A DNA stretch of 10,447 nt, taken from positions 1-10,447 of the forward strand of contig NZ_SNUY01000078.1 in assembly GCF_004376175.1 (NCBI RefSeq), read 5' to 3'. Positions 105 to 10,447 of this stretch are shown piece after piece. The position numbers were made by a program, and so were the translations under genes. The notes beneath the pieces are model-generated. The model did not search any database and was not told the origin of the DNA. It was given only the letters and a program-made list of their open reading frames with translations. Position 1 is the first letter of the stretch. Each line of letters begins with the position of its first letter. Origin of the DNA: Halalkalibacterium halodurans (lineage in GTDB: Bacteria; Bacillota; Bacilli; Bacillales; Bacillaceae_D).

Positions 105-428
105 TCATAGAACTTTTGACACTACCTCATCATTCATGATATTTTCGACCATATGAACATCTATCGCAGAATATTTAATACGGTTTTTTTGAATGGCATA
201 AAACAAAGTGTGATACATCTTACGTTTTGGATTACTTCGAGATGGCATTAATAAGAAAATGCTAACTCCCATACCAAAAACATAATAGGGAATGGTTAAC
301 GAAGAGTGAACCATTCCCTTAGATAGATAAAGAAAAAAAGCAGTTAGTAATAGAATGACAATCTCTTTAAGATGAAATGACTTGGTTATCTTTATCTCAC
401 TTTTAAAGTGTTTCGGAATTTCATACAA
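105..428 (-). CDS. Small two-TM T4SS membrane protein, PrgI/ConD/TcpE-type (VirB3-like), 107 aa
   Basis: Track ORF. The start is TTG (426-428), with a GGGAGGAAGG SD about 8 nt upstream. It lies 1 nt after the TAG stop (430-432) of the upstream gene, so the two are translationally coupled. An N-terminal IPKHFKSEIKITKSFHLKEIV segment is followed by two adjacent hydrophobic helices and a basic tail (RSNPKRKMYHTLFYAIQKNRIKY), which is the PrgI-family/VirB3-like layout. It sits directly after a VirB6-like gene. The family call is from recalled pattern only. Confidence 0.75.
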   Translation of the reverse strand: MYEIPKHFKSEIKITKSFHLKEIVILLLTAFFLYLSKGMVHSSLTIPYYVFGMGVSIFLLMPSRSNPKRKMYHTLFYAIQKNRIKYSAIDVHMVENIMNDEVVSKVL

Positions 429-429
429 G

Positions 430-2640
430 CTACCTTCCTCCCTTTCTCCAATCTCTTATTGTTCTTCCGATTCGATACCCTGTATTGTAACCTTTTACAT
501 GCTCTTCCTTGGCTTTCATAACTACTCTATTTTGCCCCCAAATAGTATTTGGGTGTTGGGCTGTTTTAAACCCTGTTTCCTTTGTAGTATCGTATGTGGT
601 TTCTTGATATTTTTCATTAGGTGCAGTACTTTCTCCACTCGGAACTGGCGCTGTACCTTGTACGCTTTCACTTGAAATTGGTGCAGTACTTTCTCCACTC
701 GGAACTGGCGCTGTATCTTGTACGCTTTCACTTGAAATTGGTGCAGTACTTTCTCCACTCGGAACTGGCGCTGTACCTTGTACGCTTTCACTTGAAATTG
801 GTGCAGTACTTTCTCCACTCGGAACTGGCGCTGTATCTTGTACGCTTTCACTTGAAATTGGTGCAGTACTTTCTCCACTCGGAACTGGCGCTGTACCTTG
901 TACGCTTTCACTTGAAATTGGTGCAGTACTTTCTCCACTCGGAACTGGCGCTGTACCTTGTACGCTTTCACTTGAAATTGGTGCAGTACTTTCTCCACTC
1001 GGAACTGGCGCTGTATCTTGTACGCTTTCACTTGAAATTGGTGCAGTACTTTCTCCACTCGGAACTGGCGCTGTATCTTGTACACTTTCGCTTGAAATTG
1101 GTGCAGTACTTTCTCCACTCGGAACTGGCGCTGTACCCTGACCAGCCTGTGCATTCAGATTCTGACCTTTCATGCCTTGATCAGCTTGTGCATTTGGATT
1201 CTGACCTTTCATGCCTTGATCAGCCTGTGCATTTGGATTCTGACCTTTCATGCCTTGACCAGCCTGTGCATTTGGATTCTGACCTTTCATGCCTTGACCA
1301 GCCTGTGCATTTGGATTCTGACCTTTCATGCCTTGACCAGCCTGTGCATTTGGATTCTGACCACTTGGGATTTTGTTATTCGCTTGATTACGTCTCGATT
1401 GAGATAAAGCGCCATTGTCTTTTTTTGCCCCATTAGTAGCTTGTATACCTGCCTTTAATCCCCCTGCTAAACCTACACCTTGATTGAATTTAGAGAAGCT
1501 TTCACTTACGAGTTTGCCCCCTACCTTTGATGTCACGTTTGATACAGCTTTACTAGCCATCACTAATCCTACACCTGTCCGCCAACTATCTTTTAATCCT
1601 GCGTCTACTCCTAGTATTCTTTCGACTAAGTGTGGACCATCAATAAGAGCAAGGCTAGCCGCTAATAATAGTAACGAGCTTCCAAACGACCCCAAAGACG
1701 ATTGACCACTTAGCCAGTTTGAAAAAAGCACATAGAATTTAAGAGACACTGCAAGAAAAAAGATAACCGCAAAATTGGAAATTATATCATTAATAATTTG
1801 TTTGATTCGCTGTCCTCCTGATAAATCTGTGACAGCTATAAATAAGCCAAACAGCTTTTTAAATGCTAACTCAAATATAATTCGTCCAACTTTTAAAACA
1901 GCTATAATTAACGTAATTCCAATCACAGATAAGCTAAAAATCGTATTCCACCAAGCTACATGCCAACGGTAGTAAAGTTCTTTACCAATACCAAACCATC
2001 CGTTGCCAAGTGGCTCTTCTCTAAAATTACCATTTGTGTCCATAACCAATTTGCTTTTTAAGTAATCATTATTTATATCATCACTGTCGGGATCTATCAA
2101 TTCATTAATATCTATATACGTTATTCGACTAACCGGAAGATCATTTACAAGTCCTTTTTCCGGTATTCTCACATTAAAATCCTTTTTTGCATAAAGGTAT
2201 ACATCAGCAATATTACCTTTAATAAGTTGTTCAGCATTTGTGCCAGCGCTAGTATCACCTATGGCTTTGACCCCTGCTGTTGTTATATTGTCTAAATTAG
2301 ACAATAGCAGGGGCAATGCAATAATAAACAAGAAAGCCAATAAAACATTAGTCACAACTCTTTCCCGATCTTGCATTTTCCCTGCCATAAACTTATATCC
2401 TATCCACACCAGTGATATTGCAACAAGTACCCATAATACCGGCGACCATTGTTTTATAAAGTTATTTACAGGTGCTGAGTTGAAAAATCCATTCATAGTC
2501 AATACTGTATCCGTCATACCTTCTACTTGGTTGACTAGCCACATAAGCCCTAAAATGAGCCACCAGCCTAACTCTCGAAGGGATGAACTAAGTATATTAG
2601 CAATGTTCAAAATCGAATCATATTGTTCTAAAACGTCCAA
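430..2640 (-). CDS. VirB6-like polytopic T4SS channel protein (ConG/TcpH/PrgH class) with a long repetitive C-terminal tail, 736 aa
   Basis: Track ORF. TTG start at 2638-2640, with a GGGGGAGA SD about 5 nt upstream, 11 nt after the stop of the upstream gene. Residues 1-340 contain about 7 hydrophobic helices, with a ~115-aa hydrophilic loop after the third helix (VirB6-type topology). The segment LIDGPHLVERILGVDAGLKDSWR after the last helix resembles Gram-positive VirB6 analogues. The C-terminal ~330 aa carry GQNPNAQAGQGMK x5.7 and TAPVPSGESTAPISSESVQ[G/D] x8.7 repeats, followed by a basic 60-aa end. Confidence 0.85.
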   Translation of the reverse strand: MDVLEQYDSILNIANILSSSLRELGWWLILGLMWLVNQVEGMTDTVLTMNGFFNSAPVNNFIKQWSPVLWVLVAISLVWIGYKFMAGKMQDRERVVTNVLLAFLFIIALPLLLSNLDNITTAGVKAIGDTSAGTNAEQLIKGNIADVYLYAKKDFNVRIPEKGLVNDLPVSRITYIDINELIDPDSDDINNDYLKSKLVMDTNGNFREEPLGNGWFGIGKELYYRWHVAWWNTIFSLSVIGITLIIAVLKVGRIIFELAFKKLFGLFIAVTDLSGGQRIKQIINDIISNFAVIFFLAVSLKFYVLFSNWLSGQSSLGSFGSSLLLLAASLALIDGPHLVERILGVDAGLKDSWRTGVGLVMASKAVSNVTSKVGGKLVSESFSKFNQGVGLAGGLKAGIQATNGAKKDNGALSQSRRNQANNKIPSGQNPNAQAGQGMKGQNPNAQAGQGMKGQNPNAQAGQGMKGQNPNAQADQGMKGQNPNAQADQGMKGQNLNAQAGQGTAPVPSGESTAPISSESVQDTAPVPSGESTAPISSESVQDTAPVPSGESTAPISSESVQGTAPVPSGESTAPISSESVQGTAPVPSGESTAPISSESVQDTAPVPSGESTAPISSESVQGTAPVPSGESTAPISSESVQDTAPVPSGESTAPISSESVQGTAPVPSGESTAPNEKYQETTYDTTKETGFKTAQHPNTIWGQNRVVMKAKEEHVKGYNTGYRIGRTIRDWRKGGR
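621..1140. repeat. 60-bp perfect-phase tandem repeat, about 8.7 copies, inside the VirB6-like CDS
   Basis: The unit gtgcagtactttctccactcggaactggcgctgta[c/t]cttgtacgctttcacttgaaattg starts at 621, 681, 741, 801, 861, 921, 981, 1041 and 1101 (the last is partial). One site toggles c/t (656+60n: c,t,c,t,c,c,t,t,c), giving Gly/Asp on the minus strand. The only other changes are two synonymous Ser-codon swaps at 1084 and 1090 and one synonymous Gln change at 1138. Confidence 0.97.
1141..1362. repeat. 39-bp tandem repeat, about 5.7 copies, inside the VirB6-like CDS
   Basis: The unit a[c/t]cagc[c/t]tgtgcatt[t/c][g/a]gattctgacctttcatgccttg starts at 1141, 1180, 1219, 1258, 1297 and 1336 (the last is partial, ending at 1362). 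It encodes GQNPNAQA[G/D]QGMK on the minus strand. The length is a multiple of 3, so copy-number change keeps the reading frame. Confidence 0.97.
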
Positions 2641-2651
2641 AAAATCTCCCC

Positions 2652-3389
2652 CTATAAGGTCACTGAAATATCATGCTTTGCTTTTTGCAAATACAAGAAA
2701 TTAAATAACAAAAATAAGTAAAAGACTGTAAAAATAACTAAAGTAATAGGGGAATTAAGAAAGTCAGCATATAGCTTACTAGCAAAGAGCGATAAAAGAA
2801 TAGGAACCGCAAATACAATACCTGTCATAAAATAAACTCTGTTCGCACTATATTTTTTCTCTCTCTGCAATTCATCCCTTTTAGTTGTCTCGAAGTTAAT
2901 TAATTTGCTAGTAGGACTGAAAAGATCTGTTACAGATCCCCCCATTTGATACTTAATCTCTAATATTTGATGGAAGGCATTTAGCGATACAAAATTATAT
3001 TTTTCAAAATGAGCTACATCGAGTACACCTTCTTGTTTGAGCGTTTTTATAGTCTTGTCTATATCCTTTTTCAATAAATCACTAGCCGATTCTTTAGCTC
3101 CTTCTAAGGCAAAAAGAACGTTTTTGCCTGTCTTTAAATAAAAAACAACATTTGAAACATACTTACTTAACTCACTAAAAATCCTCTGTTCTTTCTTTAA
3201 CTGCCTCCCCAACAATGAAATGCTATAGAAGCAAAGCAAAGACCCAACAAGCCCTAACAAAACGCTTAATACAACATGTTTGCTGATCATGTAGATGTAA
3301 AGAAAGTTGATACTAAAATAAAGGAGTAAATGGAGCAATACCACCCAACCAGAAAACAATTCTTTTGTTAAACCCCATACATCTTTCAT
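2652..3389 (-). CDS. Polytopic membrane protein with T2SSF (GspF/TadB/TadC)-like organisation, 245 aa
   Basis: Track ORF. ATG at 3387-3389, with an AGGAGG SD 8 nt upstream. Two N-terminal TM helices, a ~115-aa helical cytoplasmic segment, then two C-terminal TM helices. The central region follows the platform-protein pattern: SELSKYVSNVVFYLKTGKNVLFALEGA ... NAFHQILEIKYQMGGSVTDLFSPTSKLINFETTKRDELQREKKYSANRVYFMTGIVFAVPIL. The CDS is confident; the family assignment is moderate to low. Confidence 0.8.
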   Translation of the reverse strand: MKDVWGLTKELFSGWVVLLHLLLYFSINFLYIYMISKHVVLSVLLGLVGSLLCFYSISLLGRQLKKEQRIFSELSKYVSNVVFYLKTGKNVLFALEGAKESASDLLKKDIDKTIKTLKQEGVLDVAHFEKYNFVSLNAFHQILEIKYQMGGSVTDLFSPTSKLINFETTKRDELQREKKYSANRVYFMTGIVFAVPILLSLFASKLYADFLNSPITLVIFTVFYLFLLFNFLYLQKAKHDISVTL

Positions 3390-3415
3390 TTTTTTAACCT
3401 CCTGTTTTGATTAAT

Positions 3416-3450
3416 AAAAAAAGGCTTACAAGTCCAATCACTTGTAAGCC
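3416..3450 (-). terminator. Rho-independent terminator downstream of the primase gene
   Basis: On the minus strand: GGCTTACAAGT-gattgg-ACTTGTAAGCC (perfect 11-bp stem at 3423-3433/3440-3450, 6-nt loop) followed directly by TTTTTTT (3416-3422). The plus-strand reading has no T-tract, so it is unidirectional. Confidence 0.85.
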
Positions 3451-3470
3451 CCGAAAAAATCCCTAATAAC

Positions 3471-3499
3471 AATATAGCACGCTTTGAGTACCTTGTTAG
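3471..3499 (-). promoter_or_regulatory. Candidate sigma-A type promoter (extended -10) in the primase/245-aa intergenic region
   Basis: On the minus strand: CTAACA (3494-3499, 4/6 to TTGACA), a 17-nt spacer ending in TGC, then TATATT (3471-3476, 5/6 to TATAAT). That gives a TGnTATATT extended -10. It is only a sequence match, and the spacer also contains a 5-bp inverted repeat AGTAC...GTACT. Confidence 0.3.
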
Positions 3500-3526
3500 T
3501 ACTTAAATAGTTCATAAAAAGTTCGT

Positions 3527-5134
3527 TTAACCAACTTCCTTTTGAGATTCTTTTTCTTTGTTTTTAGTTTTTAATGGCTTTGTTAAATCTAAAATCTTGT
3601 TAGAAAAATCCTTAGAAGTCTTAACAAAGCTATTTATTTTATCACCCTTAAAATAGTACGGTGTTGATACATAATCTTTTCCTTTACTCTTACCTGTTAC
3701 AATTCCATTTACAATTAAATTACGATAACCAATATTAACAGATATATTACCGTTAGAGAAAGTATGTGAATGAATGATTTTAGGATCAAACTTCCCCCCC
3801 CCTGAACTAATATTAATCCCTACATTCTTAACTGTATTTTTTTCCTTAACCTGATGTTTAAGCTCATAGTAACTTTTAATCAACGCCCCTTCTATCATTC
3901 GTTTATCAAGGCTTTCTTCAAATCTATACACATCCCTCCATACACTATCAGTCCCCTTTTTTTGTGGATAATTAATCATAGGTGAACCTTTATATTCCTC
4001 TATTACAATATTATTGAGAGTTATCTCACCGTACTTCACACATGCAAGGGAAATTCCTTTATCTTGCAAAAAGGTCATATTAACAATCTTAACTTTATAA
4101 TCATTTGATTGCTCTGTTTTGTCATTCATTTTCTCACCCTCCTCTTTTTTCAAATCTATGTCTAAGGTTCTTAAAGTTAGCTCTATTTGTCGCTCAAAAA
4201 GTAAGCGGTTGCTTTGGAGTAAGTCATTAGGATCTTTTAGATCCATATCTGGATAAATAAATCCTTTATGAAACAACTTCTCTTCATCCAAAACGTGTGC
4301 TATTTTTTTATCTGCTTCTTTTCCTGCTCTATCATTGTCAAAAGCTCTAATAATCTTTTTCCCCTTAAACTTATCAGGGTTTTCTTTTATAAATGTTTCA
4401 AGCTGTTTTATTTTATTTGAACCTGTAGTCATTAATAAACCCATTTTCGGATCTATTTCTCGGAATGATAGTCCGTCTATAATACTTTCACTAATAACAA
4501 CAGTTTCAGCATTATCCGGTATATCTTCGACAAAATATCTTGCTTTCTCTGTTGGATTTAAAAATAACTGGATTTCTTTCTTCTTTAGACTAGGATCAGA
4601 CGACCTTAATAACAACGAGTCAATTGATCCTTCATGATTGTAAATAGGAAAAACAATATTCCTCTTTGTCATAAAGTCCATTTTCGCATAGTCTTTTTTG
4701 ATTAGGTCAGGGATTTTCGAGAACATAAGTGATACAATCTTAGGATCTTTTAGATCCAAAATGAAAGGTTTCGTAACTTCTCGATTTATCCCCCGATAAT
4801 TTTCTAATTCTTGATTTACAACATGTTTACTCATGAATTTAAAAAAATTAGTACACCAGTCGATTTGCTCTTTTTGTTTTAAAGAGATACTTTTAGGTTT
4901 TTCGTTTTTCTTTAAGTTCAGATTACCTTTTAGTTTTTCATTTAGTTTAATATGCCAACGTTCACCGCAATTATTTTGCCTATTGCACTGTAACACATTA
5001 AGATTATCTTTATACATAAATGCTTCTGGCTGATTACAAGATGGACAAGTACATAAAAAATAACGCCCCTGTGGTTGAGCGTTTAAAGATTCCAACATAT
5101 CATCAATATTCCTAAACTCTAATTGATTCACCAT
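3527..5134 (-). CDS. Plasmid/ICE-type DNA primase: N-terminal Cys-rich zinc ribbon + Toprim domain + C-terminal tandem SpoVG-like domains, 535 aa
   Basis: Track ORF. ATG at 5132-5134, with a GAGGT SD 7 nt upstream. Cys cluster C28-x-C30-x2-C33 ... C50-x5-C56. Toprim signature: acidic Glu in VVISESIIDGLSF (E216) and DxD in IIRAFDNDRAGKEAD (D266/D268). Residues ~346-425 and ~436-517 each resemble SpoVG (see findings). Confidence 0.85.
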   Translation of the reverse strand: MVNQLEFRNIDDMLESLNAQPQGRYFLCTCPSCNQPEAFMYKDNLNVLQCNRQNNCGERWHIKLNEKLKGNLNLKKNEKPKSISLKQKEQIDWCTNFFKFMSKHVVNQELENYRGINREVTKPFILDLKDPKIVSLMFSKIPDLIKKDYAKMDFMTKRNIVFPIYNHEGSIDSLLLRSSDPSLKKKEIQLFLNPTEKARYFVEDIPDNAETVVISESIIDGLSFREIDPKMGLLMTTGSNKIKQLETFIKENPDKFKGKKIIRAFDNDRAGKEADKKIAHVLDEEKLFHKGFIYPDMDLKDPNDLLQSNRLLFERQIELTLRTLDIDLKKEEGEKMNDKTEQSNDYKVKIVNMTFLQDKGISLACVKYGEITLNNIVIEEYKGSPMINYPQKKGTDSVWRDVYRFEESLDKRMIEGALIKSYYELKHQVKEKNTVKNVGINISSGGGKFDPKIIHSHTFSNGNISVNIGYRNLIVNGIVTGKSKGKDYVSTPYYFKGDKINSFVKTSKDFSNKILDLTKPLKTKNKEKESQKEVG

Positions 5135-5148
5135 ATTGTTTACCTCAA

Positions 5149-5682
5149 CTATACAGACTCACTTAAATAACTGTGATCATTTGTAACCTCTCTGTGAGTA
5201 GATAAAACAATTGCTGGATAACTTAATTTTTCAATCTCTTTATCATCAAAAGTAAGTCCTTGAGAGCTTACCAATATCTTCTGTTTTTCTTTGATCCTAT
5301 AATAATGATCCGTCTTATTAATTTGTTGCTCAATTGCCTTTTCTAAATTTCTAGCTATGAGATAAATGATAGCTCCGTCTCCAAAGATACTCTTATTATC
5401 AAAATATTTTTGTAACTCCAGAGATCCCACTACAATGAAGTCATTATTTAAACATTCAGATAGAGCAACAACTTCCTCCATTTCTTCTTCTAAACCTTTT
5501 AATAAAGCAAAATCATTAAATTTATTAGAGTAATATATACAAGGAGTACATTGAGGACTACTTGTAAACAGAAGAATGATCTCCTGCCAAAACTGTTCCG
5601 CCATAGCATAGCATTTTTCTGCAATCCTATTTACAATTTTTTCATTTAAATATTGATTCTCATGTAATAACAAATTACTCAT
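5149..5682 (-). CDS. Hypothetical acidic cytoplasmic protein, 177 aa
   Basis: Track ORF. ATG at 5680-5682, with an AGGAGAG SD 6 nt upstream. It is 11 nt after the upstream stop and 14 nt before the primase start. No TM segment, no signal peptide and no motif I recognise. Confidence 0.8.
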   Translation of the reverse strand: MSNLLLHENQYLNEKIVNRIAEKCYAMAEQFWQEIILLFTSSPQCTPCIYYSNKFNDFALLKGLEEEMEEVVALSECLNNDFIVVGSLELQKYFDNKSIFGDGAIIYLIARNLEKAIEQQINKTDHYYRIKEKQKILVSSQGLTFDDKEIEKLSYPAIVLSTHREVTNDHSYLSESV

Positions 5683-5693
5683 AATTAACTCTC

Positions 5694-6950
5694 CTAACTT
5701 TTATTTTTTTCAAAAACCACTTTAGTAACATGACTGATATACTCAGTAACCGCCCAATACTTAAAATCCATGCCTTTATTAATGCTCGACTCATATAACA
5801 CTTTTTTTACCTCTTCTTGATCCAACGTTGCAACATACTCCATAATCTCACGTTCAAAACGCCCAAAGAATCCACATTCTATTAATTCCTCAATTTTTAA
5901 AGTTTCTTTTTTGTTCTGCAACCTTCTAATTAGTTTGCCATCTTGACAGATGTTTTTTACTAAGATTTCTGCTACATTATCGAATCCATGTTTTGAAAAT
6001 AAATTTAAAAGATCGTCTTCTGTTTGTCCGTTTGATTGACTTTCATTTTCCTCATTAATGTTAAAGACAATAATCGCTTCTTCTGACTTCTGATCCTTTT
6101 GTTCATTCTGTAAGTATCCAGATAATACTGGCAGTATAATATTATTTTTTATATCGTCCTCAGAGGAAATAACTATCCCCTTTTTAATAATTGAATACCA
6201 CCTGTTCTTCAATAAAGTTTCTATTTCTTTATTCTTTTTTAGCGCCAATACGTAGTCCTCTAAAGCTAGTTGCTCGAATAAATATCTTTGAACCTCTTCA
6301 TAAACTTCCGAATCTCTTAGGCATTTATCAAGTCTAGATAAAGGTAAACTGTAGCGACTTGCTACAGCATAATTCTGAAACATTGAAAAGTTTTCAACGT
6401 CATTTAGACTTTCCTGTGTTAATTCCTGTGTTAAGACTAGATCATCAAAAGAATACTTAATTGCTTTTGCAATATCATTAACTTCACTATAAAAACTACC
6501 TACTATTCGATCTCTAAAAAGATCATAGAGTTGCTTCAATTTTTCTAAACTAAAAGAAAAATCTTGATTAGAAAATTGTTCTTCGACTTCAATAGCAAAC
6601 AATTTAAAATTTTGATCCAAAAACAATTTCTTTTCTTTTGATAGAAAATCAGTAAAATCATTGATCACTTTATTTTTCGTAGCTTCATTCCAATTTGACG
6701 CATTTTTTATTATCAGATAAATCGATTCTTCCAAACTTCTATTATCATTAAAATCAATAAAAGCCTTTAACACTCTTTTATTTTTAATAAACAAAGTAAA
6801 GGACAGTTCAACATTATCCCTTCCATTTTTTCTAAATTCACCTTTAAGTTTTTTTAAGATTCCTTCTAATTCGCTAATAAAATATCGTCGCTTTGGATCT
6901 AAATCTCTAATGCTGTTATTAGCTTCAACAACTACATGTACTTCCCTCAT
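5694..6950 (-). CDS. Hypothetical acidic helical cytoplasmic protein, 418 aa from the preferred start
   Basis: The track ORF extends to a TTG at 6980, but that codon lies inside the upstream terminator T-tract. The ATG at 6948-6950 has an AAAGGGG SD 7 nt upstream and is preferred. There is no Walker A, metal-binding or nuclease motif that I can recognise, and no TM segments. Confidence 0.8.
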   Translation of the reverse strand: MREVHVVVEANNSIRDLDPKRRYFISELEGILKKLKGEFRKNGRDNVELSFTLFIKNKRVLKAFIDFNDNRSLEESIYLIIKNASNWNEATKNKVINDFTDFLSKEKKLFLDQNFKLFAIEVEEQFSNQDFSFSLEKLKQLYDLFRDRIVGSFYSEVNDIAKAIKYSFDDLVLTQELTQESLNDVENFSMFQNYAVASRYSLPLSRLDKCLRDSEVYEEVQRYLFEQLALEDYVLALKKNKEIETLLKNRWYSIIKKGIVISSEDDIKNNIILPVLSGYLQNEQKDQKSEEAIIVFNINEENESQSNGQTEDDLLNLFSKHGFDNVAEILVKNICQDGKLIRRLQNKKETLKIEELIECGFFGRFEREIMEYVATLDQEEVKKVLYESSINKGMDFKYWAVTEYISHVTKVVFEKNKS

Positions 6951-6978
6951 GTCAAAACCCCTTTTTAACAGTAAATAC

Positions 6979-7010
6979 AAAAAAAGATGGTGAGTTAATA
7001 ACTCACCATC
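6979..7010 (-). terminator. Rho-independent terminator downstream of the 75-aa gene
   Basis: On the minus strand: GATGGTGAGTT-att-AACTCACCATC (11-bp perfect inverted repeat at 6986-6996/7000-7010) followed by TTTTTTT (6979-6985). It starts 8 nt after the TAG stop at 7019-7021. Confidence 0.85.
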
Positions 7011-7018
7011 CTACATTT

Positions 7019-7246
7019 CTAGAAGGCAACTACCCCTCTTAAACTGTCTCGTAACGCTCCTGCTCCCAGCACAATCACCAGTCCAACAAGAAGCCATGTA
7101 ATATTTCGCTTGCCCTTTTCCCTACCTTCTTGTCCTCCTGCAAAGAAGTTATACCCCGCCATACATAACATTACTGCACAAAAAGCCCACGCAGGCATTT
7201 GAATAAGCCCTAAGAAGTTTATTAAAGTAGAAATTACACCCTGCAT
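7019..7246 (-). CDS. VirB2/TrbC-like small two-TM protein (pilin-type T4SS subunit), 75 aa
   Basis: Track ORF. ATG at 7244-7246, with a GGAGGA SD 8 nt upstream. Two hydrophobic helices are separated by a short charged loop (GGQEGREKGKRN). The pattern LINFLGL...AFCAVMLCMAGYNFFAGG...LLVGLVIVLGAGALRDSLRG parallels mature Agrobacterium VirB2 (FILGPFGQSLAVLGIVAIGISWMFGR...GGIVIMFGASFLGKTLTG). This is recalled similarity, not a search result. Confidence 0.7.
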   Translation of the reverse strand: MQGVISTLINFLGLIQMPAWAFCAVMLCMAGYNFFAGGQEGREKGKRNITWLLVGLVIVLGAGALRDSLRGVVAF

Positions 7247-7475: not shown

Positions 7476-10010
7476 TTATTCCAACGAAATAATATTAGAC
7501 AACCTTTCGTATAGGTCACCATCACTTGTTCTAAAAGAATGTAATAGCTGAGGTTGATCCTGCACCAATTCGAGTATTAGATTCTTTTGTGAATCCTTAA
7601 TCTCGACAGCATGTGTATAACTAACATTTAACGTAGATTCAGGTTGTTCATTGACGTATACGTCATCATAAACAGATCCTAATAGATACTTCTGAAAAGC
7701 AAATTCTTTACCAAAGTCAAGCGTTAGATCATTAAGTGTGAGCTTACCCAAAACATAATGATTCTTATACTGTCTCTCTCTATTCAGAAATGACTTTGGA
7801 TCAACAGGTAAATAGTACCTTTGACCATCAAAAGTTGTTATGTTTTCATTACTAAATTTTGACTTAGTAATTGATTCATACTCTAACTTTGCCTGTTTCT
7901 TTATATCTTCCTTACTTGACTTTCTAGGGACTGAGAACTGAAACCCTGTTTTATCTAAAATAAAAAAATCATCTTTAGCACCAAAATACGCCTTATACTG
8001 GTTTGCTTCACCCTCTTGTATTTCTATTAACTCAAGGGGAATTGCATACTCTGTATAGGCGTAAGCAGTTTTATTTTGATATTTTTTCTGTATAGATTCA
8101 TCCAAATCTACAGGGTAAAGGAACATAAAATCCTCGTCAATGTTATAAGGGAATGGCTCTCCAAAGTCTGATTTGTACTCTATTGGCTTATCAAATATCG
8201 GAAGCCAACTTTGCGTGAGTAAAGTAATCATTCTTTGATCATTAAGCTTTAGTGACTCATAATAACTTTCTTTTTCCCCTTTCGAACCTACCTCTACCGT
8301 TTGCCCTATTAAGAATCTGTGATCAGTACCAAATTCTAAATTATAGGTTTCATTATATGGATAATCTAAGTTAAACGTTTCTTCCCACTGGAAGCTTTTT
8401 TTATACTCTTTATCCCACACAGGTGTACTATCTTTGTAGATCCACTCAAAACAATGCTGTCCTTGTTGATCAGTACAAGTATAATTACGCCTAAAATGGT
8501 TCGTATACTCATAAGAAAAAGAAAACAGAACATCCCTTTTTTTTACATCCAATGGTTGTAACTTCGTTGAAAATGGTTCATCCTCTACGTTGTTAAATAC
8601 ATTTGCTGAATAGATACGATTTTCTACATTTTGTACATCAAAGTGCAACCCTGCAACCGTAGCAGAATTAACCAATAAGGTTTCACTAGGGTTATTTTCT
8701 TTAATTTTTTGTAAGCGCCATGATACTTCACCTTGAGCTTTCCCTTCTGTTGCACCATCTAATTCTTCTATACTGGAAGGGTTCGGCAAAGATACTTTGT
8801 AGGTAAATGTAAAATTCATATTGTTATTTGGTGTAGTCCCTTCATATTTTTGTCCTTCTGGCGAAGCGACAAAAGGGTTTCCGTTGGAATCCTTAAAAAA
8901 TCCAGCCTTCTCAGGTGCATACGAGTAAGAGTTTCCAACAGTAGATTTTACCTTCGTTTGCATTAATATCTTGCCTGTCGCGTAATCCTTATGAGTAATT
9001 GTTACATCAACTGTACATCTTTGATTGATGTTTACTATTGACCCATCTGGACAAACCTTTTTGGTTACTTGGTACGATAGAGTAGCAATAGTACCACCAA
9101 AAGCCCAATAGCTACTAGCTGCCCATCGAGTTCGTCCTGAATCATGAGGGCTACTGACACCATACCAAACAACAGTACTCTTTTGATCTTGGTTCACACG
9201 TTGATAAAAGCGATTGTAGTCAAAATAGTTGCCACTGTTTGTAGTCCCTCTTGGTTCGATTCGCCTGATAACACCATTTCCAATCATACGTAACTGTTGA
9301 GCGTTAATCCCACTAGAAAGGCTAATTTCACCATTACCCCAAGATAGATTTTCAAACTCAAAAGGTAAACGCAATTCGTCATAAAGAACAGTTGAACCTA
9401 CTCTTTTGACAATACGTAACTGCCAATCAGAGTTATTTTCCCCATCCTTAAAAAGCTCATCTAATGGAACATGCGCTCTAAACCCTACATGTTCATAATA
9501 CATGTTGCAAGTTGCATTATTTTGGTTTCTAGCACTATTCGCACAAGGGTTCCAAATATCCCCCGTTTGAGACTGACGGTTGAACTCCATATCTTTTGAA
9601 GCGTTAAAATTAAGTTGTTCCGCTTTATAAAACTTGTCTTCCCCAGTCCTAATATTTTTAAGCCAAATGTATGTGTCTTGGTTATTTTCTGTGTGGTGTC
9701 TATGTCCAATAACTGCTGACCATCCTGTGAAAGTTAAATATTGCCTACTACCTTTTCCAAAGTCCCTACGTTTAATGCTCCAGCCTTCTTTTCCGTCTCT
9801 TTGCATATAAACATCATATACCATCTTTTTTCCACTTTCGAAAGTAGCAGATCGATCTCCTTTTGTCCTCTTGTTTACATCGCTCATTTTAACGTCGTAA
9901 GGACTGTAACTATTCGCTAATCCATTTTCAGGGAAAGCCAACCAAAGAGCAAACCAAAGAGCAAATAATGAAAACACAACAGTTATATAGGAAATTGCTT
10001 TCTTCATCAT
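7476..10010 (-). CDS. Large secreted surface/adhesin-like protein with a MucBP-like beta domain, 844 aa from the preferred start
   Basis: The track ORF begins at a TTG at 10049, inside the upstream terminator. The ATG-ATG at 10005-10010 follows an AAAGGGGGTGAGGGA SD. It has a classical Sec signal peptide (MMKK + AISYITVVFSLFALWFALWLAF + PENGLA/NS). Residues ~346-419 in track numbering (VDVTITHKDYATGKILMQTKVKSTVGNSYSYAPEKAGFFKDSNGNPFVASPEGQKYEGTTPNNNMNFTFTYKV) fit the MucBP pattern. There are three short-range Cys pairs (169/181, 333/345, 525/533). There is no C-terminal LPXTG or TM anchor. Confidence 0.85.
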   Translation of the reverse strand: MMKKAISYITVVFSLFALWFALWLAFPENGLANSYSPYDVKMSDVNKRTKGDRSATFESGKKMVYDVYMQRDGKEGWSIKRRDFGKGSRQYLTFTGWSAVIGHRHHTENNQDTYIWLKNIRTGEDKFYKAEQLNFNASKDMEFNRQSQTGDIWNPCANSARNQNNATCNMYYEHVGFRAHVPLDELFKDGENNSDWQLRIVKRVGSTVLYDELRLPFEFENLSWGNGEISLSSGINAQQLRMIGNGVIRRIEPRGTTNSGNYFDYNRFYQRVNQDQKSTVVWYGVSSPHDSGRTRWAASSYWAFGGTIATLSYQVTKKVCPDGSIVNINQRCTVDVTITHKDYATGKILMQTKVKSTVGNSYSYAPEKAGFFKDSNGNPFVASPEGQKYEGTTPNNNMNFTFTYKVSLPNPSSIEELDGATEGKAQGEVSWRLQKIKENNPSETLLVNSATVAGLHFDVQNVENRIYSANVFNNVEDEPFSTKLQPLDVKKRDVLFSFSYEYTNHFRRNYTCTDQQGQHCFEWIYKDSTPVWDKEYKKSFQWEETFNLDYPYNETYNLEFGTDHRFLIGQTVEVGSKGEKESYYESLKLNDQRMITLLTQSWLPIFDKPIEYKSDFGEPFPYNIDEDFMFLYPVDLDESIQKKYQNKTAYAYTEYAIPLELIEIQEGEANQYKAYFGAKDDFFILDKTGFQFSVPRKSSKEDIKKQAKLEYESITKSKFSNENITTFDGQRYYLPVDPKSFLNRERQYKNHYVLGKLTLNDLTLDFGKEFAFQKYLLGSVYDDVYVNEQPESTLNVSYTHAVEIKDSQKNLILELVQDQPQLLHSFRTSDGDLYERLSNIISLE

Positions 10011-10037
10011 TAGAAGTCCCTCACCCCCTTTTCGAAT

Positions 10038-10070
10038 AAAAAAACACAAAACCTAGTAGCTTCGTGTTTT
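10038..10070 (-). terminator. Intrinsic terminator of small-peptide cassette 1
   Basis: Minus-strand RNA: AAAACACGAAGC-uacuag-GGUUUUGUGUUUU followed by further U (7 U in a row, 10038-10044). The core stem is 8 bp with two G.U pairs, flanked by A/U pairs. It overlaps the TAA stop at 10069-10071. Confidence 0.7.
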
Positions 10071-10224
10071 AGAATACATTGCGAATCGTATCTGTAATAC
10101 CTTTAAAAACAGTATCTACTGTTTGACTAAACCATCCATTATCACCACCAAGTGCTACCCCTAGCACTCCAAAGAGCATTACAGCAAGAACAATTAAAAA
10201 CAAAGATCCATTTTTTTCACCCAT
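10069..10224 (-). CDS. 51-aa single-TM membrane peptide, cassette copy 1 (not in the ORF track)
   Basis: Hand translation of the minus strand gives ATG (10222-10224) ... TAA (10069-10071): MGEKNGSLFLIVLAVMLFGVLGVALGGDNGWFSQTVDTVFKGITDTIRNVF. The SD AAAGGGGGTGA (10/11 match to AAAGGAGGTGA) ends 5 nt before the ATG. An identical peptide is encoded 209 bp upstream, with only a synonymous difference. Confidence 0.8.
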   Translation of the reverse strand: MGEKNGSLFLIVLAVMLFGVLGVALGGDNGWFSQTVDTVFKGITDTIRNVF

Positions 10225-10246
10225 CAGTTTCACCCCCTTTTCGAAT

Positions 10247-10279
10247 AAAAAAACACGAAACCTAATAGCTTCGTGTTTT
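10247..10279 (-). terminator. Intrinsic terminator of small-peptide cassette 2
   Basis: Same hairpin as at 10038-10070, but the stem G.U pair is a G-C pair here (10257 g versus 10048 a on the plus strand) and the loop differs by one base. It is followed by U7. Confidence 0.7.
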
Positions 10280-10433
10280 AGAATACATTGCGAATCGTAT
10301 CTGTGATACCTTTAAAAACAGTATCTACTGTTTGACTAAACCATCCATTATCACCACCAAGTGCTACCCCTAGCACTCCAAAGAGCATTACAGCAAGAAC
10401 AATTAAAAACAAAGATCCATTTTTTTCACCCAT
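10278..10433 (-). CDS. 51-aa single-TM membrane peptide, cassette copy 2 (not in the ORF track)
   Basis: ATG at 10431-10433 and TAA at 10278-10280. The protein is identical to copy 1, with a single synonymous ATT/ATC difference at Ile43. It has the same consensus-like SD. Confidence 0.8.
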   Translation of the reverse strand: MGEKNGSLFLIVLAVMLFGVLGVALGGDNGWFSQTVDTVFKGITDTIRNVF

Positions 10434-10447
10434 CAGCTTCACCCCCT

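What the first reader, a model, noticed from the sequence alone, without database searches (positions are those of the whole stretch)
621..1362. Two near-perfect in-frame tandem arrays form the C-terminal tail of the VirB6-like channel protein
A third of this T4SS membrane protein is encoded by 5.7 copies of a 39-bp unit (GQNPNAQA[G/D]QGMK) followed by 8.7 copies of a 60-bp unit (TAPVPSGESTAPISSESVQ[G/D]).

DNA identity between copies is almost complete. In the 60-bp array the only non-synonymous variation is one C/T site that toggles Gly/Asp without regular order. The other three changes are synonymous and sit in the copies at the high-coordinate end of the array (the last full copy and the terminal partial copy).

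Identity this high implies very recent expansion or ongoing homogenisation. Both unit lengths are multiples of 3, so slippage or recombination would change tail length without breaking the frame. The tail could therefore act as a length-variable spacer.

The composition is Pro/Ser/Thr/Gly/Gln-rich with no hydrophobic segments. That resembles cell-wall-spanning linkers of Gram-positive surface proteins, and it is unusual for the VirB6-like proteins I know. The 20-aa unit is itself an ancient 10-aa duplication (TAPvpSgES / TAPisSES).

Which side of the membrane the tail occupies cannot be determined from sequence alone.
Basis: partly seen in the sequence, partly recalled or inferred. Interest (0 to 1): 0.6.

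Follow-up and report, generated by a model that had tools for sequence, protein, structure and literature searches.

The report
Repeat-built disordered tail of VirB6-like protein
The two near-perfect in-frame repeat arrays are real and make up a third of a conjugation-channel protein. Long, floppy, repeat-prone tails turn out to be normal for this protein family, so this is a fresh example of a known kind rather than a new mechanism.

Summary
Gene 430..2640 (-) encodes a 736-aa pLS20_p028-family "extended VirB6". Residues 427-674 (33.7%) are 5.7 copies of a 39-bp unit followed by 8.6 copies of a 60-bp unit. Both arrays are in frame and 96-98% identical between copies.

- **Supported: length-variable spacer.** Hydrophilic, low-complexity tails of 160-613 aa were found in all 118 relatives examined. 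Unrelated in-frame arrays arose independently in at least six lineages, including pLS20 itself, pXO2 and C. botulinum plasmids. Three records of one B. thuringiensis plasmid differ only by whole 45-bp units.
- **Not supported: "unusual for VirB6-like proteins".** It is typical of this family.
- **Disfavoured: cell-wall-spanning linker.** There are six core helices. The 80 aa after the last helix are net positive in 97% of relatives. There is no LPXTG motif. These features predict that the tail leaves on the cytoplasmic side, although VirB6 topology is uncertain.

My reading is an acidic, disordered tether whose length drifts by slippage or unequal recombination. No other copy of this allele exists in the databases searched, so its own copy-number variation cannot be tested.

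The parts
430..2640 (-). Gene for the 736-aa pLS20_p028-family (extended VirB6-like) conjugation transmembrane protein, TTG start, stop codon included
   Evidence: ORF listing. NCBIfam NF045890 scores 380.6 bits against a cutoff of 150 over aa 2-366. Identical to P0001, hypothetical protein E2L07_18195 of Halalkalibacterium halodurans.
1606..2640 (-). Polytopic core, aa 1-345. Six long helices (16-47, 56-85, 92-127, 230-271, 277-312, 317-343) and a beta-rich acidic central loop (aa 135-228).
   Evidence: AF2 model of aa 1-350 has pLDDT 79 and pTM 0.70. Top Foldseek PDB hits are TrwI/VirB6 of R388: 8rtd_L with prob 0.96, TM 0.49, E 0.19, and 7o3v_G/J. Family hydropathy and charge profile.
1591..1641 (-). 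Most conserved motif of the family, directly after the last core helix: D334-G-P-x3-E340-x3-G344-x-D-A-G348-L-K
   Evidence: Invariant columns in the 60- and 89-sequence alignments.
1363..1605 (-). Membrane-proximal G/A/K-rich segment of the tail, aa 346-426, net charge +8
   Evidence: Charge count. The equivalent 80 aa are net positive in 97% of 116 relatives. AF2 gives low-confidence short helices at 355-399.
1139..1362 (-). 39-bp in-frame tandem array, 5.7 copies, GQNPNAQA[G/D]QGMK, aa 427-502
   Evidence: TRF. Unit-by-unit listing. Pairwise differences of 0-2 nt.
619..1137 (-). 60-bp in-frame tandem array, 8.6 copies, TAPVPSGESTAPISSESVQ[G/D], aa 503-674. With the boundaries used (aa 501-673), net charge is -21.
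   Evidence: TRF. Unit listing. Charge. AF2 pLDDT about 30-38 through aa 346-704.
433..618 (-). Non-repeated C-terminal end, aa 675-736. It contains the conserved basic module at about aa 695-733 (window 442-558): NTIWGQNRVVMKAKEEHVKGYNTGYRIGRTIRDWRK.
   Evidence: A motif of the type RTIGQY..K..R.Y.LG.NT..KW plus a basic end is found in 39 of 120 relatives and in pLS20. tblastn of aa 695-726 against L001 gives 50% identity at E 7e-6, independent of the core match. Alignment A3. AF2 predicts a helix at 705-733 with pLDDT about 50.
105..428 (-). Downstream DUF5592 gene (107 aa, VirB3-like position), the conserved partner gene of this family
   Evidence: Pfam PF17332 at E 1.9e-20. A DUF5592 gene follows the VirB6-like gene in pLS20, the Bti plasmid, Exiguobacterium, C. 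botulinum, Listeria, S. aureus and C. perfringens loci.

Best explanation
The two arrays are recently expanded filler of the intrinsically disordered C-terminal extension that is typical of pLS20-type "extended VirB6" channel subunits.

**Layout of the protein**
- Six-helix VirB6-like core.
- Invariant DGP..E..G.DAG motif.
- Basic membrane-proximal segment.
- Acidic, Ser/Pro/Ala/Gly/Gln-rich linker, here built almost entirely from the 13-aa and 20-aa units.
- Short conserved basic C-terminal helix.

**How it evolves.** In the linker only hydrophilicity, net acidity and approximate length appear constrained. Replication slippage or unequal recombination between units therefore adds and removes whole units freely. 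Only unit lengths divisible by 3 survive in a coding region. This yields lineage-private arrays and alleles of different length.

**How it probably works (inferred).** The tail most likely leaves the core on the cytoplasmic side. There it would act as a flexible tether, or entropic brush, that presents the conserved C-terminal module to a partner at the base of the secretion machine. The partner is not identified.

**Shown versus inferred**
- Shown: the anatomy, the family-wide recurrence of arrays, whole-unit polymorphism in sister plasmids, predicted disorder and the charge pattern.
- Inferred: the side of the membrane, the tether role and the partner.
For: **Family membership.** NF045890 at E 7e-114. 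VirB6-like fold. DUF5592 neighbour.

**Tail is a family trait.**
- 118 relatives have tails of 160-613 aa, median 296.
- Distant members are 613-952 aa.
- pLS20-family orthologues span 690-1135 aa (PMC8557374).

**Arrays recur independently.** Periods of 13+20, 33, 53, 15, 16 and 26+27 aa occur with unrelated unit sequences. Seven of 12 sampled genes have DNA-level arrays, and every period is divisible by 3.

**Whole-unit polymorphism.**
- Three complete B. thuringiensis ~359.5-kb plasmid records have identical flanks. Their genes are 2508, 2463 and 2373 bp and differ by 45-bp and 90-bp indels inside a 45-bp x12.4 array.
- B. cereus-group alleles show a one-unit 15-aa indel plus larger indels of 33-65 aa in the repeat region. 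C. botulinum alleles show a two-unit 32-aa indel.

**Young arrays with interior homogenisation.** Interior copies are identical and edge copies are the most diverged. The units occur nowhere else in genome or metagenome contigs.

**Disorder.** pLDDT is about 30-38 over aa 346-704. Maximum hydropathy is -0.08.

**Cytoplasmic side.**
- Six helices. The short loops 81-99 and 250-286 are basic, and the long central loop is acidic.
- The proximal 80 aa are net positive in 97% of relatives and the linker is net negative in 91%.
- There is no LPXTG motif.
- The base of the R388 VirB6 pentamer contacts VirB3 and VirB4 (PMC9259494).

**Conserved C-terminal module beyond the linker**.
Against: - No experiment or structure places the tail. 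In the assembled R388 machine only two N-terminal VirB6 helices cross the membrane and the rest sit in the periplasm (PMC9259494). Hydropathy-based topology can therefore mislead. A recent review states that the topology of Gram-positive extended VirB6 (Orf15) is uncertain.
- The C-terminal module is absent from the Exiguobacterium and C. botulinum clades, so a tether-for-module role cannot be universal.
- No partner was identified. A VirB11 co-occurrence test failed. AF2 did not dock the helix on the core with any confidence.
- Copy-number variation of this particular allele cannot be shown, because there is a single sequence in the collection.
- Differences between deposited plasmid assemblies could in principle be assembly noise.
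- P/S/T-rich composition is also typical of extracellular wall-spanning regions.
Confidence: 0.55

Rival explanations
1. Extracellular, cell-wall-spanning spacer. The tail would leave the core on the outside and reach through the peptidoglycan, placing the basic C-terminal module at or beyond the wall. Spacer length would be tuned to wall thickness.
For: - The composition is Pro/Ser/Thr/Gly-rich, like wall-spanning regions. B. cereus-group units such as SGGSPAPIETPRSVP look similar.
- In the assembled R388 T4SS most of VirB6, including its C-terminal hydrophobic helices, lies on the periplasmic side.
- Extended VirB6 proteins of Rickettsiales are reported as surface-exposed (PMC3556328).
- From my own knowledge, F-plasmid TraG has a periplasmic C-terminal domain.
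Against: - Six-helix parity with an acidic central loop and basic short loops predicts C-in.
- The 80 aa after the last helix are net positive in 97% of relatives, which violates the positive-inside rule if they are outside.
- There is no LPXTG motif or recognisable wall-binding domain.
- Even with an R388-like arrangement, the last helix runs towards the membrane or cytoplasmic base, where VirB3 and VirB4 dock.
Confidence: 0.2
2. Adaptive contingency locus. Copy number would be selected to vary. It might diversify a recognition surface, such as entry or surface-exclusion specificity or mating-partner recognition, or help escape something that targets the tail.
For: - Whole-unit length alleles exist among isolates of one plasmid.
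- Arrays recur in many lineages.
- VirB6-type proteins are the donor-side partners of exclusion proteins in other systems (PMC4027160).
- Anaplasma VirB6-3 and VirB6-4 repeats vary between strains.
Against: - Both unit lengths are multiples of 3, so there is no on/off switching.
- The only amino-acid variation between units is Gly/Asp, so expansion changes length rather than sequence diversity.
- Tail composition differs between lineages (N/K-rich, G/S-rich, S/T/P-rich). I read this as mutational drift under weak constraint, which is inference.
- A predicted cytoplasmic location would preclude contact with the partner cell.
- There are no population data for this element.
Confidence: 0.1
3. 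Threaded or translocated tail. The disordered tail would carry a positively charged C-terminal end that resembles T4SS translocation signals. The coupling protein would engage it and it would thread into or through the channel, acting as a plug, pseudo-substrate or probe that reaches the recipient.
For: - The end is basic (RIGRTIRDWRKGGR). The last 45 aa carry +4 to +11 in the motif-bearing relatives listed.
- The tail is disordered and long enough (about 390 aa) to span the envelope.
- Published proposals hold that extended VirB6 C-terminal domains protrude through the T4SS or are released and translocated (quoted in PMC3556328).
- The VirD4 gene is immediately upstream of the VirB6-like gene in most loci.
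Against: - This is purely analogical. A basic C-terminus has many other explanations, such as membrane or DNA binding.
- The module is missing from whole clades.
- The module is predicted helical rather than unstructured.
- There are no data on cleavage or transfer.
Confidence: 0.07
4. Assembly artefact. The arrays, or at least their copy numbers and the order of G/D units, would be products of short-read mis-assembly rather than the real allele.
For: - The 518-bp array of units differing at one site exceeds ordinary short-read length.
- The source is a 15.5-kb contig from a draft assembly.
- Repeats are known to break assemblies of pLS20-family plasmids (PMC8557374).
Against: - The ORF stays in frame through both arrays and continues into a conserved C-terminal module.
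- Analogous arrays exist in many complete plasmid sequences.
- An artefact would not create two different in-frame arrays with diverged edge copies.
Confidence: 0.05

Closest known systems
pLS20 gene 49 product (pLS20_p028 family, NF045890 / DUF8208), the "putative extended-VirB6" of Bacillus pLS20-family plasmids
   Same: - Same HMM family and the same invariant post-core motif.
- Same DUF5592 downstream gene.
- Long Ser/Gly/Pro-rich tail with two adjacent in-frame arrays, 81 bp x2.4 and 78 bp x3.5.
- Related C-terminal module...RTAYDIAKNT....
- Length varies widely between orthologues, 690-1135 aa.
   Different: - About 27% identity in the core (H111).
- The repeat units are unrelated in sequence and period.
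- The window's arrays are more perfect (96-98% against 87-94%) and make up most of the linker.
- No VirD4 gene lies directly upstream in the window.
VirB6-like protein of the B. thuringiensis serovar israelensis-type ~359.5-kb conjugative plasmid (WP_151874091.1 and length variants)
   Same: - Identical architecture: core, basic proximal segment, array 1 (42 bp x4.4), array 2 (45 bp x12.4, Pro/Ser/Thr/Glu-rich) and a C-terminal module.
- Demonstrated whole-unit length alleles.
   Different: - Different unit sequences.
- Older arrays (90-92% matches).
- VirD4 is adjacent.
Anaplasma phagocytophilum VirB6-3 / VirB6-4 (Rickettsiales extended VirB6)
   Same: A polytopic VirB6 domain followed by a hydrophilic, acidic C-terminal extension. 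The extension is made of tandem repeats whose number varies between strains (PMC3556328).
   Different: - Gram-negative effector-translocating T4SS.
- Repeat units of hundreds of bp, and proteins of up to 5,550 aa.
- Proposed surface exposure and antigenicity.
- No detectable sequence relationship to the tail here.
TrwI/VirB6 of plasmid R388 (PDB 7O3V, 8RTD)
   Same: Best structural match of the predicted core. Multi-helix hydrophobic subunit with a central extracytoplasmic insertion.
   Different: - 342 aa with no long tail.
- The match is weak (E about 0.2, TM 0.4-0.5).
- No Pfam TrbL/VirB6 hit.
- The window protein has one extra N-terminal helix.
Wall-spanning Pro/Thr/Ser-rich regions of LPXTG surface proteins
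   Same: Low-complexity P/S/T/G composition, tandem repeats and length polymorphism.
   Different: No signal peptide or LPXTG sorting signal. The region follows a polytopic membrane core with predicted C-in orientation.

Membership tests
pLS20_p028 family conjugation transmembrane protein (NF045890 / PF26635 DUF8208) | Scores above the curated cutoff of the family HMM | tested here: met
   380.6 bits against a cutoff of 150, E 6.8e-114, aa 2-366 on profile positions 2-376 of 377. Precomputed PF26635 on P0001.
pLS20_p028 family conjugation transmembrane protein (NF045890 / PF26635 DUF8208) | Invariant motif D-G-P-x3-E-x3-G-x-D-A-G after the last core helix | tested here: met
   D334, G335, P336, E340, G344, D346, A347 and G348 are invariant in the 60- and 89-sequence alignments that include the window protein.
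pLS20_p028 family conjugation transmembrane protein (NF045890 / PF26635 DUF8208) | Gene context: DUF5592 (VirB3-like) gene immediately downstream, then TraC-like and VirB4 | tested here: met
   DUF5592 lies at 105..428, 1 bp after the stop codon. The TraC-like and VirB4 genes would fall beyond the window edge. They are present in the syntenic L001.
pLS20_p028 family conjugation transmembrane protein (NF045890 / PF26635 DUF8208) | VirD4-type coupling-protein gene directly upstream (usual, not universal) | tested here: not met
   The window has a 245-aa gene and then a primase upstream. There is no VirD4 within the 7.8 kb upstream. This is a context feature rather than a defining one, and L001 also has VirD4 a few genes away.
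VirB6 / TrbL superfamily (T4SS channel subunit) | Five or more hydrophobic helices with a large central extracytoplasmic loop | tested here: met
   Six long helices and a beta-rich acidic loop at aa 135-228 in an AF2 model with pLDDT 79. Family hydropathy profile. This is a prediction only.
VirB6 / TrbL superfamily (T4SS channel subunit) | Sequence-profile similarity to Pfam TrbL/VirB6 | tested here: not met
   No Pfam family at E <= 0.01 for the full protein. Homology to classical VirB6 is not detectable by this test.
VirB6 / TrbL superfamily (T4SS channel subunit) | Structural similarity to a solved VirB6 | tested here: inconclusive
   The top two of 350,542 PDB chains are TrwI/VirB6: 8rtd_L with prob 0.96, TMt 0.49, E 0.19, and 7o3v_G. 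None has E <= 0.001.
VirB6 / TrbL superfamily (T4SS channel subunit) | Pentameric assembly at the centre of the machine; required for transfer | not testable with these tools
   Needs multimer modelling, cryo-EM and genetics.
Extended VirB6 with strain-variable C-terminal tandem repeats (Anaplasma VirB6-3/-4 type) | Hydrophilic C-terminal extension composed of tandem repeats | tested here: met
Extended VirB6 with strain-variable C-terminal tandem repeats (Anaplasma VirB6-3/-4 type) | Copy number differs between strains carrying the same gene | not testable with these tools
   There is only one sequence of this allele among about 15 billion proteins, and the units are absent from genome and metagenome contigs. 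Variation is shown only for sister plasmids.
Wall-spanning linker of sortase-anchored Gram-positive surface proteins | N-terminal signal peptide and C-terminal LPXTG sorting signal | tested here: not met
   No LPXTG-like motif anywhere in the protein. The C-terminus is a basic helix. The N-terminus is a polytopic core.
Wall-spanning linker of sortase-anchored Gram-positive surface proteins | Extracytoplasmic location | tested here: inconclusive
   Positive-inside rule and helix parity predict cytoplasmic. The R388 structure shows that such predictions can fail for VirB6.
Phase-variable contingency locus (simple-sequence switch) | Copy-number change shifts the reading frame or promoter spacing, giving on/off expression | tested here: not met
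   Units are 39 and 60 bp, both divisible by 3, and lie inside the ORF. All family arrays have periods divisible by 3.

The most novel reading that the evidence does not exclude
The disordered, acidic, length-variable tail with its conserved arginine/lysine-rich C-terminal module is not a passive linker. It would be a tethered pseudo-substrate. The coupling protein or VirB4 would engage the basic C-terminus like a T4SS translocation signal, and the tail would thread into the channel of its own pentamer. There it would gate the channel, or reach the recipient, for example as the donor-side determinant read by exclusion proteins. Repeat number would then set how far it reaches.
Probability: 0.07. 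Interest if true: 0.8.

Novelty: new member of a known kind. Interest (0 to 1): 0.35.

Why it matters
Reviews state that the role of the extra hydrophilic domains of extended VirB6 proteins is not yet known (PMC12857230). This window adds an unusually clean example.

The comparison made here gives a simple family-wide picture that can be tested by genetics in pLS20 or B. cereus-group plasmids:
- a basic membrane-proximal segment;
- an acidic, repeat-prone linker whose length differs even between isolates of one plasmid;
- in many lineages, a conserved basic C-terminal module.

The family is present on more than 1,100 sequenced Firmicute plasmids, including Enterococcus megaplasmids, Listeria and Staphylococcus plasmids and pXO2. 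Whether linker length matters for transfer efficiency is therefore relevant to the spread of resistance and virulence plasmids.

There is also a practical point. These arrays are likely to be mis-assembled in short-read data.

The finding itself does not reveal a new mechanism.

Tried and rejected
- **Close relatives for copy-number comparison.**
  - megablast of the whole window against PLSDB gave no match.
  - The search for related loci in genome contigs found nothing.
  - The look-up of encoding contigs for P0001 found no record.
  - Degenerate DNA patterns for both repeat units gave 0 hits in genome contigs and metagenome contigs.
- **Full-length AF2 model.** It was too poor for fold search (pLDDT 50), and Foldseek returned only noise. 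Repeating with the core alone worked.
- **Sequence search of the PDB.** Nothing meaningful.
- **Profile of the C-terminal module against the 5.8-billion protein set.** It returned only five short fragments. This was uninformative about other contexts of the module.
- **VirB11 docking hypothesis.** I asked whether the C-terminal module co-occurs with a VirB11-like ATPase, as a docking site. Rejected: motif-positive L010 has no T2SSE-family gene within 10 kb, and the motif-negative loci lack it too, so nothing discriminates.
- **Rfam scan of the window.** No RNA family. The 271-aa plus-strand ORF at 621..1436 is a by-product of the stop-free repeats.
- **Pfam scan of the tail end and of the duplicated 51-aa ORF.** Nothing.
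- **Breidenstein et al. 2025** (structure predictions of Gram-positive T4SS) is not held in the library.
- **TcpH topology** (cytoplasmic C-terminal domain; Teng et al. 2008) could not be retrieved. It is cited only from memory and I did not rely on it.

Full report
**1. What is in the sequence**

The window carries a minus-strand operon of Gram-positive conjugation genes. ORF 430..2640 (-) encodes 736 aa.

TRF reports two adjacent arrays inside it:
- 1139-1362, period 39, 5.7 copies, 96% matches;
- 620-1137, period 60, 8.6 copies, 98% matches.

Read in the coding frame, these are:
- five GQNPNAQA[G/D]QGMK units plus a partial unit (aa 427-502);
- eight TAPVPSGESTAPISSESVQ[G/D] units plus a partial unit (aa 503-674).

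Together they are 248 aa, or 33.7% of the protein.

- In the 60-bp array one GGT/GAT site gives the order D D G G D G D G.
- The edge copy at the high-coordinate end carries two synonymous changes, and there is a synonymous change at the junction with the 39-bp array.
- There is one further synonymous change (CCT) in the low-coordinate partial copy.
- Interior copies are otherwise identical. Pairwise differences are 0-3 nt per 60 and 0-2 nt per 39.
- The most diverged copies sit at the array edges. I take this as the usual signature of arrays homogenised by slippage or unequal exchange (inference).

The region is S/P/A/G/Q/T-rich, has no hydrophobic stretch (maximum 19-aa hydropathy -0.08) and contains no Cys or LPXTG-like motif. 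Its G+C is 46-48% against 30-35% for the rest of the window.

One caveat applies. The source is a 15.5-kb contig of a draft Halalkalibacterium halodurans assembly. An array of 518 bp made of near-identical 60-bp units can be mis-counted by short-read assemblers.

**2. What the protein is**

- NCBIfam places aa 2-366 in the pLS20_p028 family of conjugation transmembrane proteins (E 6.8e-114, 380.6 bits against a cutoff of 150).
- The next gene, 105..428, is DUF5592. A DUF5592 gene follows this gene in pLS20 and in most of the other loci I inspected.
- Val-Calvo et al. 2021 list the pLS20 orthologue (their gene 49) as "putative extended-VirB6". It has 5 N-terminal TM segments and a length of 906 aa, with a range of 690-1135 aa among seven reference plasmids. 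It is followed by a 103-aa two-TM protein (PMC8557374).
- Pfam gives no TrbL/VirB6 hit.
- An AF2 model of aa 1-350 with an 89-sequence alignment is reasonably confident (pLDDT 79, pTM 0.70).
- Its two best Foldseek matches among 350,542 PDB chains are TrwI/VirB6 of the R388 T4SS: 8rtd_L with prob 0.96 and TM 0.49, and 7o3v_G. The E-values are only about 0.2.

"VirB6-like" is therefore supported by family assignment, context and a weak but specific fold match. It is not supported by direct sequence homology.

**3. The tail is a family trait, not an oddity**

A search with the core alone returned 165 proteins. The window protein itself is P0001, with a single member. The next relative is only 48% identical.

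The tails themselves are near-universal.
- Nearly all full-length relatives are 610-746 aa, although the family profile is 377 positions long.
- Measured from the invariant DGP..E..G.DAG motif, 118 relatives have tails of 160-613 aa, median 296.
- Tail composition is lineage-specific: N/K-rich, G/S-rich or S/T/P-rich.
- More distant members on plasmids are 613 aa (S. aureus), 790 aa (E. faecium), 788 aa (Listeria), 952 aa (B. anthracis pXO2) and 709 aa (C. perfringens).
- The family occurs on 1,103 PLSDB plasmids.

Tandem arrays recur in these tails.
- Fourteen of 118 tails have a protein-level tandem array far above shuffled controls.
- Those arrays have unrelated units and periods: 13+20 aa here, 33, 53, 15, 16 and 26+27 aa.
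- At the DNA level, 7 of 12 sampled genes have arrays. Every period is divisible by 3, and several genes have two adjacent arrays, as here.
- pLS20's own gene has 81 bp x2.4 followed by 78 bp x3.5.
- The window's arrays are the longest and most perfect of the set (TRF score 990 against at most 903; 96-98% against 77-94%).

A 2025 review already notes that Gram-positive MPF_FA VirB6 homologues are 700-900 aa and "contain additional unstructured domains". The same review says the role of such extensions "is not yet known" (PMC12857230). I found no paper in the searchable library that describes the tandem arrays in Gram-positive VirB6-like tails.

**4. Does copy number vary?**

For this allele the question cannot be answered.
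- megablast of the window against PLSDB gave no match.
- No relative was found in genome contigs.
- The gene is not in the contig index.
- Degenerate patterns for both units have no match in genome or metagenome contigs.

In sister lineages the answer is yes.
- Three complete records of the ~359.5-kb B. thuringiensis plasmid have 100% identical flanks: 1,377 bp upstream and 1,100 bp downstream. The flanking proteins are identical too.
- Their VirB6-like genes are 2,508, 2,463 and 2,373 bp.
- The alignment shows exactly one 45-bp and one 90-bp gap, plus four substitution columns.
- The gaps fall inside a 45-bp x12.4 array that follows a 42-bp x4.4 array. Five records at >=99% identity carry these alleles.
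- B. cereus-group alleles show a one-unit 15-aa indel and larger indels of 33, 35 and 65 aa in a 15-aa repeat region.
- C. botulinum alleles differ by 32 aa (two 16-aa units) and by 17 aa in a region of a second, ~17-aa repeat (51-bp period by TRF).

The "length-variable spacer" reading is thus supported by analogy. The reservation is that differences between deposited assemblies are not proof of biological variation.

**5.

The arrays are not the end of the protein. After them come 62 unique residues that contain a conserved module.
- In the window it reads NTIWGQNRVVMKAKEEHVKGYNTGYRIGRTIRDWRK.
- The family consensus is ..RTIGQY.KD.V....F.....R[AS]Y.LG[YK]NT.SKW followed by Lys/Arg.
- It is present in 39 of 120 relatives and in pLS20.
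- tblastn detects it independently of the core: aa 695-726 against L001 gives 50% identity at E 7e-6.
- It is absent from the Exiguobacterium and C. botulinum clades.

The full-length AF2 model gives pLDDT about 30-38 for aa 346-704. That indicates disorder. It also gives a low-confidence helix at 705-733.

The charge pattern is conserved across 116 relatives.
- The 80 aa after the core are net positive in 97% (+9 in the window by this family-wide measure).
- The linker is net negative in 91%. With one search's boundaries the 20-aa array carries -21 (0 K/R, 21 D/E).
- The last 45 aa are positive in 59% overall and in all the motif-bearing members listed (+8 here).

**6. Which side of the membrane?**

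This is inference. The model has six long helices with a beta-rich insertion between helices 3 and 4.

Family-averaged charges:

| Region | K+R | D+E | Reading |
|---|---|---|---|
| Short loop 81-99 | 3.2 | 1.5 | basic |
| Long central loop 111-234 | 13 | 20.7 | acidic |
| Loop 302-319 | 0.3 | 1.4 | almost no K/R |
| 108 aa after helix 6 | 13.4 | 5.9 | basic |

The 250-286 stretch between helices 4 and 5 is also basic. The positive-inside rule and helix parity therefore give N-in/C-in, with the tail on the cytoplasmic side.

The caveat is serious. In the assembled R388 machine only alpha1 and alpha2 of VirB6 cross the membrane. The other hydrophobic helices form the periplasmic stalk base (PMC9259494). 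The review calls the topology of Gram-positive extended VirB6 uncertain.

Even in that arrangement the direction of the last helix is towards the base, where VirB6 touches VirB3 and VirB4. I therefore put about two-thirds probability on a cytoplasmic-side exit. The wall-spanning-linker analogy also fails its membership test, because there is no signal peptide or LPXTG motif.

**7. Most likely mechanism**

The arrays are young, lineage-private expansions within a disordered, acidic linker that tolerates almost any hydrophilic sequence. Slippage or unequal recombination changes the number of whole units. Only periods divisible by 3 persist. Functionally the linker most likely acts as a flexible tether or brush between the channel core and the conserved basic C-terminal module. 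The module's partner is unknown.

My one attempt to find the partner by gene co-occurrence, using a VirB11-like ATPase, was negative.

Rivals:
- an extracellular spacer (0.2);
- an adaptive contingency or specificity determinant (0.1);
- a threaded pseudo-substrate whose basic C-terminus mimics a T4SS signal (0.07);
- assembly artefact (0.05 for the existence of the arrays, higher for the exact count).

**8. Comparison with known systems, and novelty**

- The closest known relatives are the pLS20 gene 49 "extended VirB6" and its B. cereus-group homologues. They share the family and the architecture, and they have their own arrays.
- In functional analogy, the closest is the Anaplasma VirB6-3/-4 proteins, whose C-terminal tandem repeats vary between strains (PMC3556328).

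The window protein is a new member of this known kind. It has private repeat units and unusually fresh arrays. The family-level regularities assembled here may not have been spelled out before, but they are incremental. They are the charge pattern, the recurrent paired arrays, whole-unit alleles within one plasmid type, and the terminal module.

**9. Verdict**

- Observation: confirmed.
- Interpretation: partly supported.
- Interest: 0.35.
- Novelty: new member of a known kind.

Noticed in passing
window 10021-10447 (runs to the window edge): A 209-bp unit is repeated 2.0 times at 98% identity. Each copy carries a Shine-Dalgarno-like site, an identical small single-TM ORF (10069..10233 and 10278..10442, minus strand; MGEKNGSLFLIVLAVMLFGVLGVALGGDNGWFSQTVDTVFKGITDTIRNVF) and a terminator-like hairpin. 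There is no Pfam hit. This looks like a tandemly duplicated small membrane-protein gene just upstream of the 857-aa gene, and the array may continue beyond the window.
   Followed up: partly
window 7019..7246 (-): A 75-aa two-helix protein matches Pfam T4SS_pilin PF18895 (E 2.6e-8, above cutoff). It matches TrbC/VirB2 and the Mbov_0395 pilin-like family weakly. Reviews state that VirB2-type pilins are generally absent from Gram-positive T4SS, and the pLS20 paper reports no VirB2 homologue. The Exiguobacterium locus L007 has a 74-aa gene with a weak TrbC hit in a similar position.
   Followed up: no
window 3390-3526 (between the primase gene 3527..5134 and the 245-aa gene 2652..3389): The syntenic locus L001 carries about 5 kb here, with six genes that include a VirD4-type coupling protein and a VirB11-like (T2SSE) ATPase. 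The window has only a 137-bp spacer. In most other family loci VirD4 sits directly upstream of the VirB6-like gene. The element may be rearranged, defective, or encode its coupling protein elsewhere.
   Followed up: partly
window 7476..10049 (-): An 857-aa protein has an N-terminal hydrophobic, signal-like segment and no Pfam or NCBIfam hit. An 847-aa gene occupies the same first position in L001. Its role is unknown. A secreted or surface (adhesin-like) function is only a guess from the signal-like start.
   Followed up: no
window 600-1400 versus the rest: G+C is 46-48% across the repeat arrays and 30-35% elsewhere in the window. The arrays are the most GC-rich part of an otherwise low-GC element.
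   Followed up: partly
L014 (B. anthracis pXO2) 2234-5092; L003 (pLS20) 4285-7209; L006 (B. thuringiensis plasmid) 1378-3885: The homologous genes of pXO2 (90 bp x3 and 81 bp x6), pLS20 (81 bp x2.4 and 78 bp x3.5) and the Bti-type plasmid (42 bp x4.4 and 45 bp x12.4) each carry two adjacent in-frame arrays in the tail. The paired-array layout recurs with unrelated unit sequences, and I have no explanation for it.
   Followed up: partly
window 621..1436 (+): A 271-aa ORF on the opposite strand runs through both arrays. It is a mechanical consequence of stop-free repeats, and nothing supports it as a gene.
   Followed up: yes
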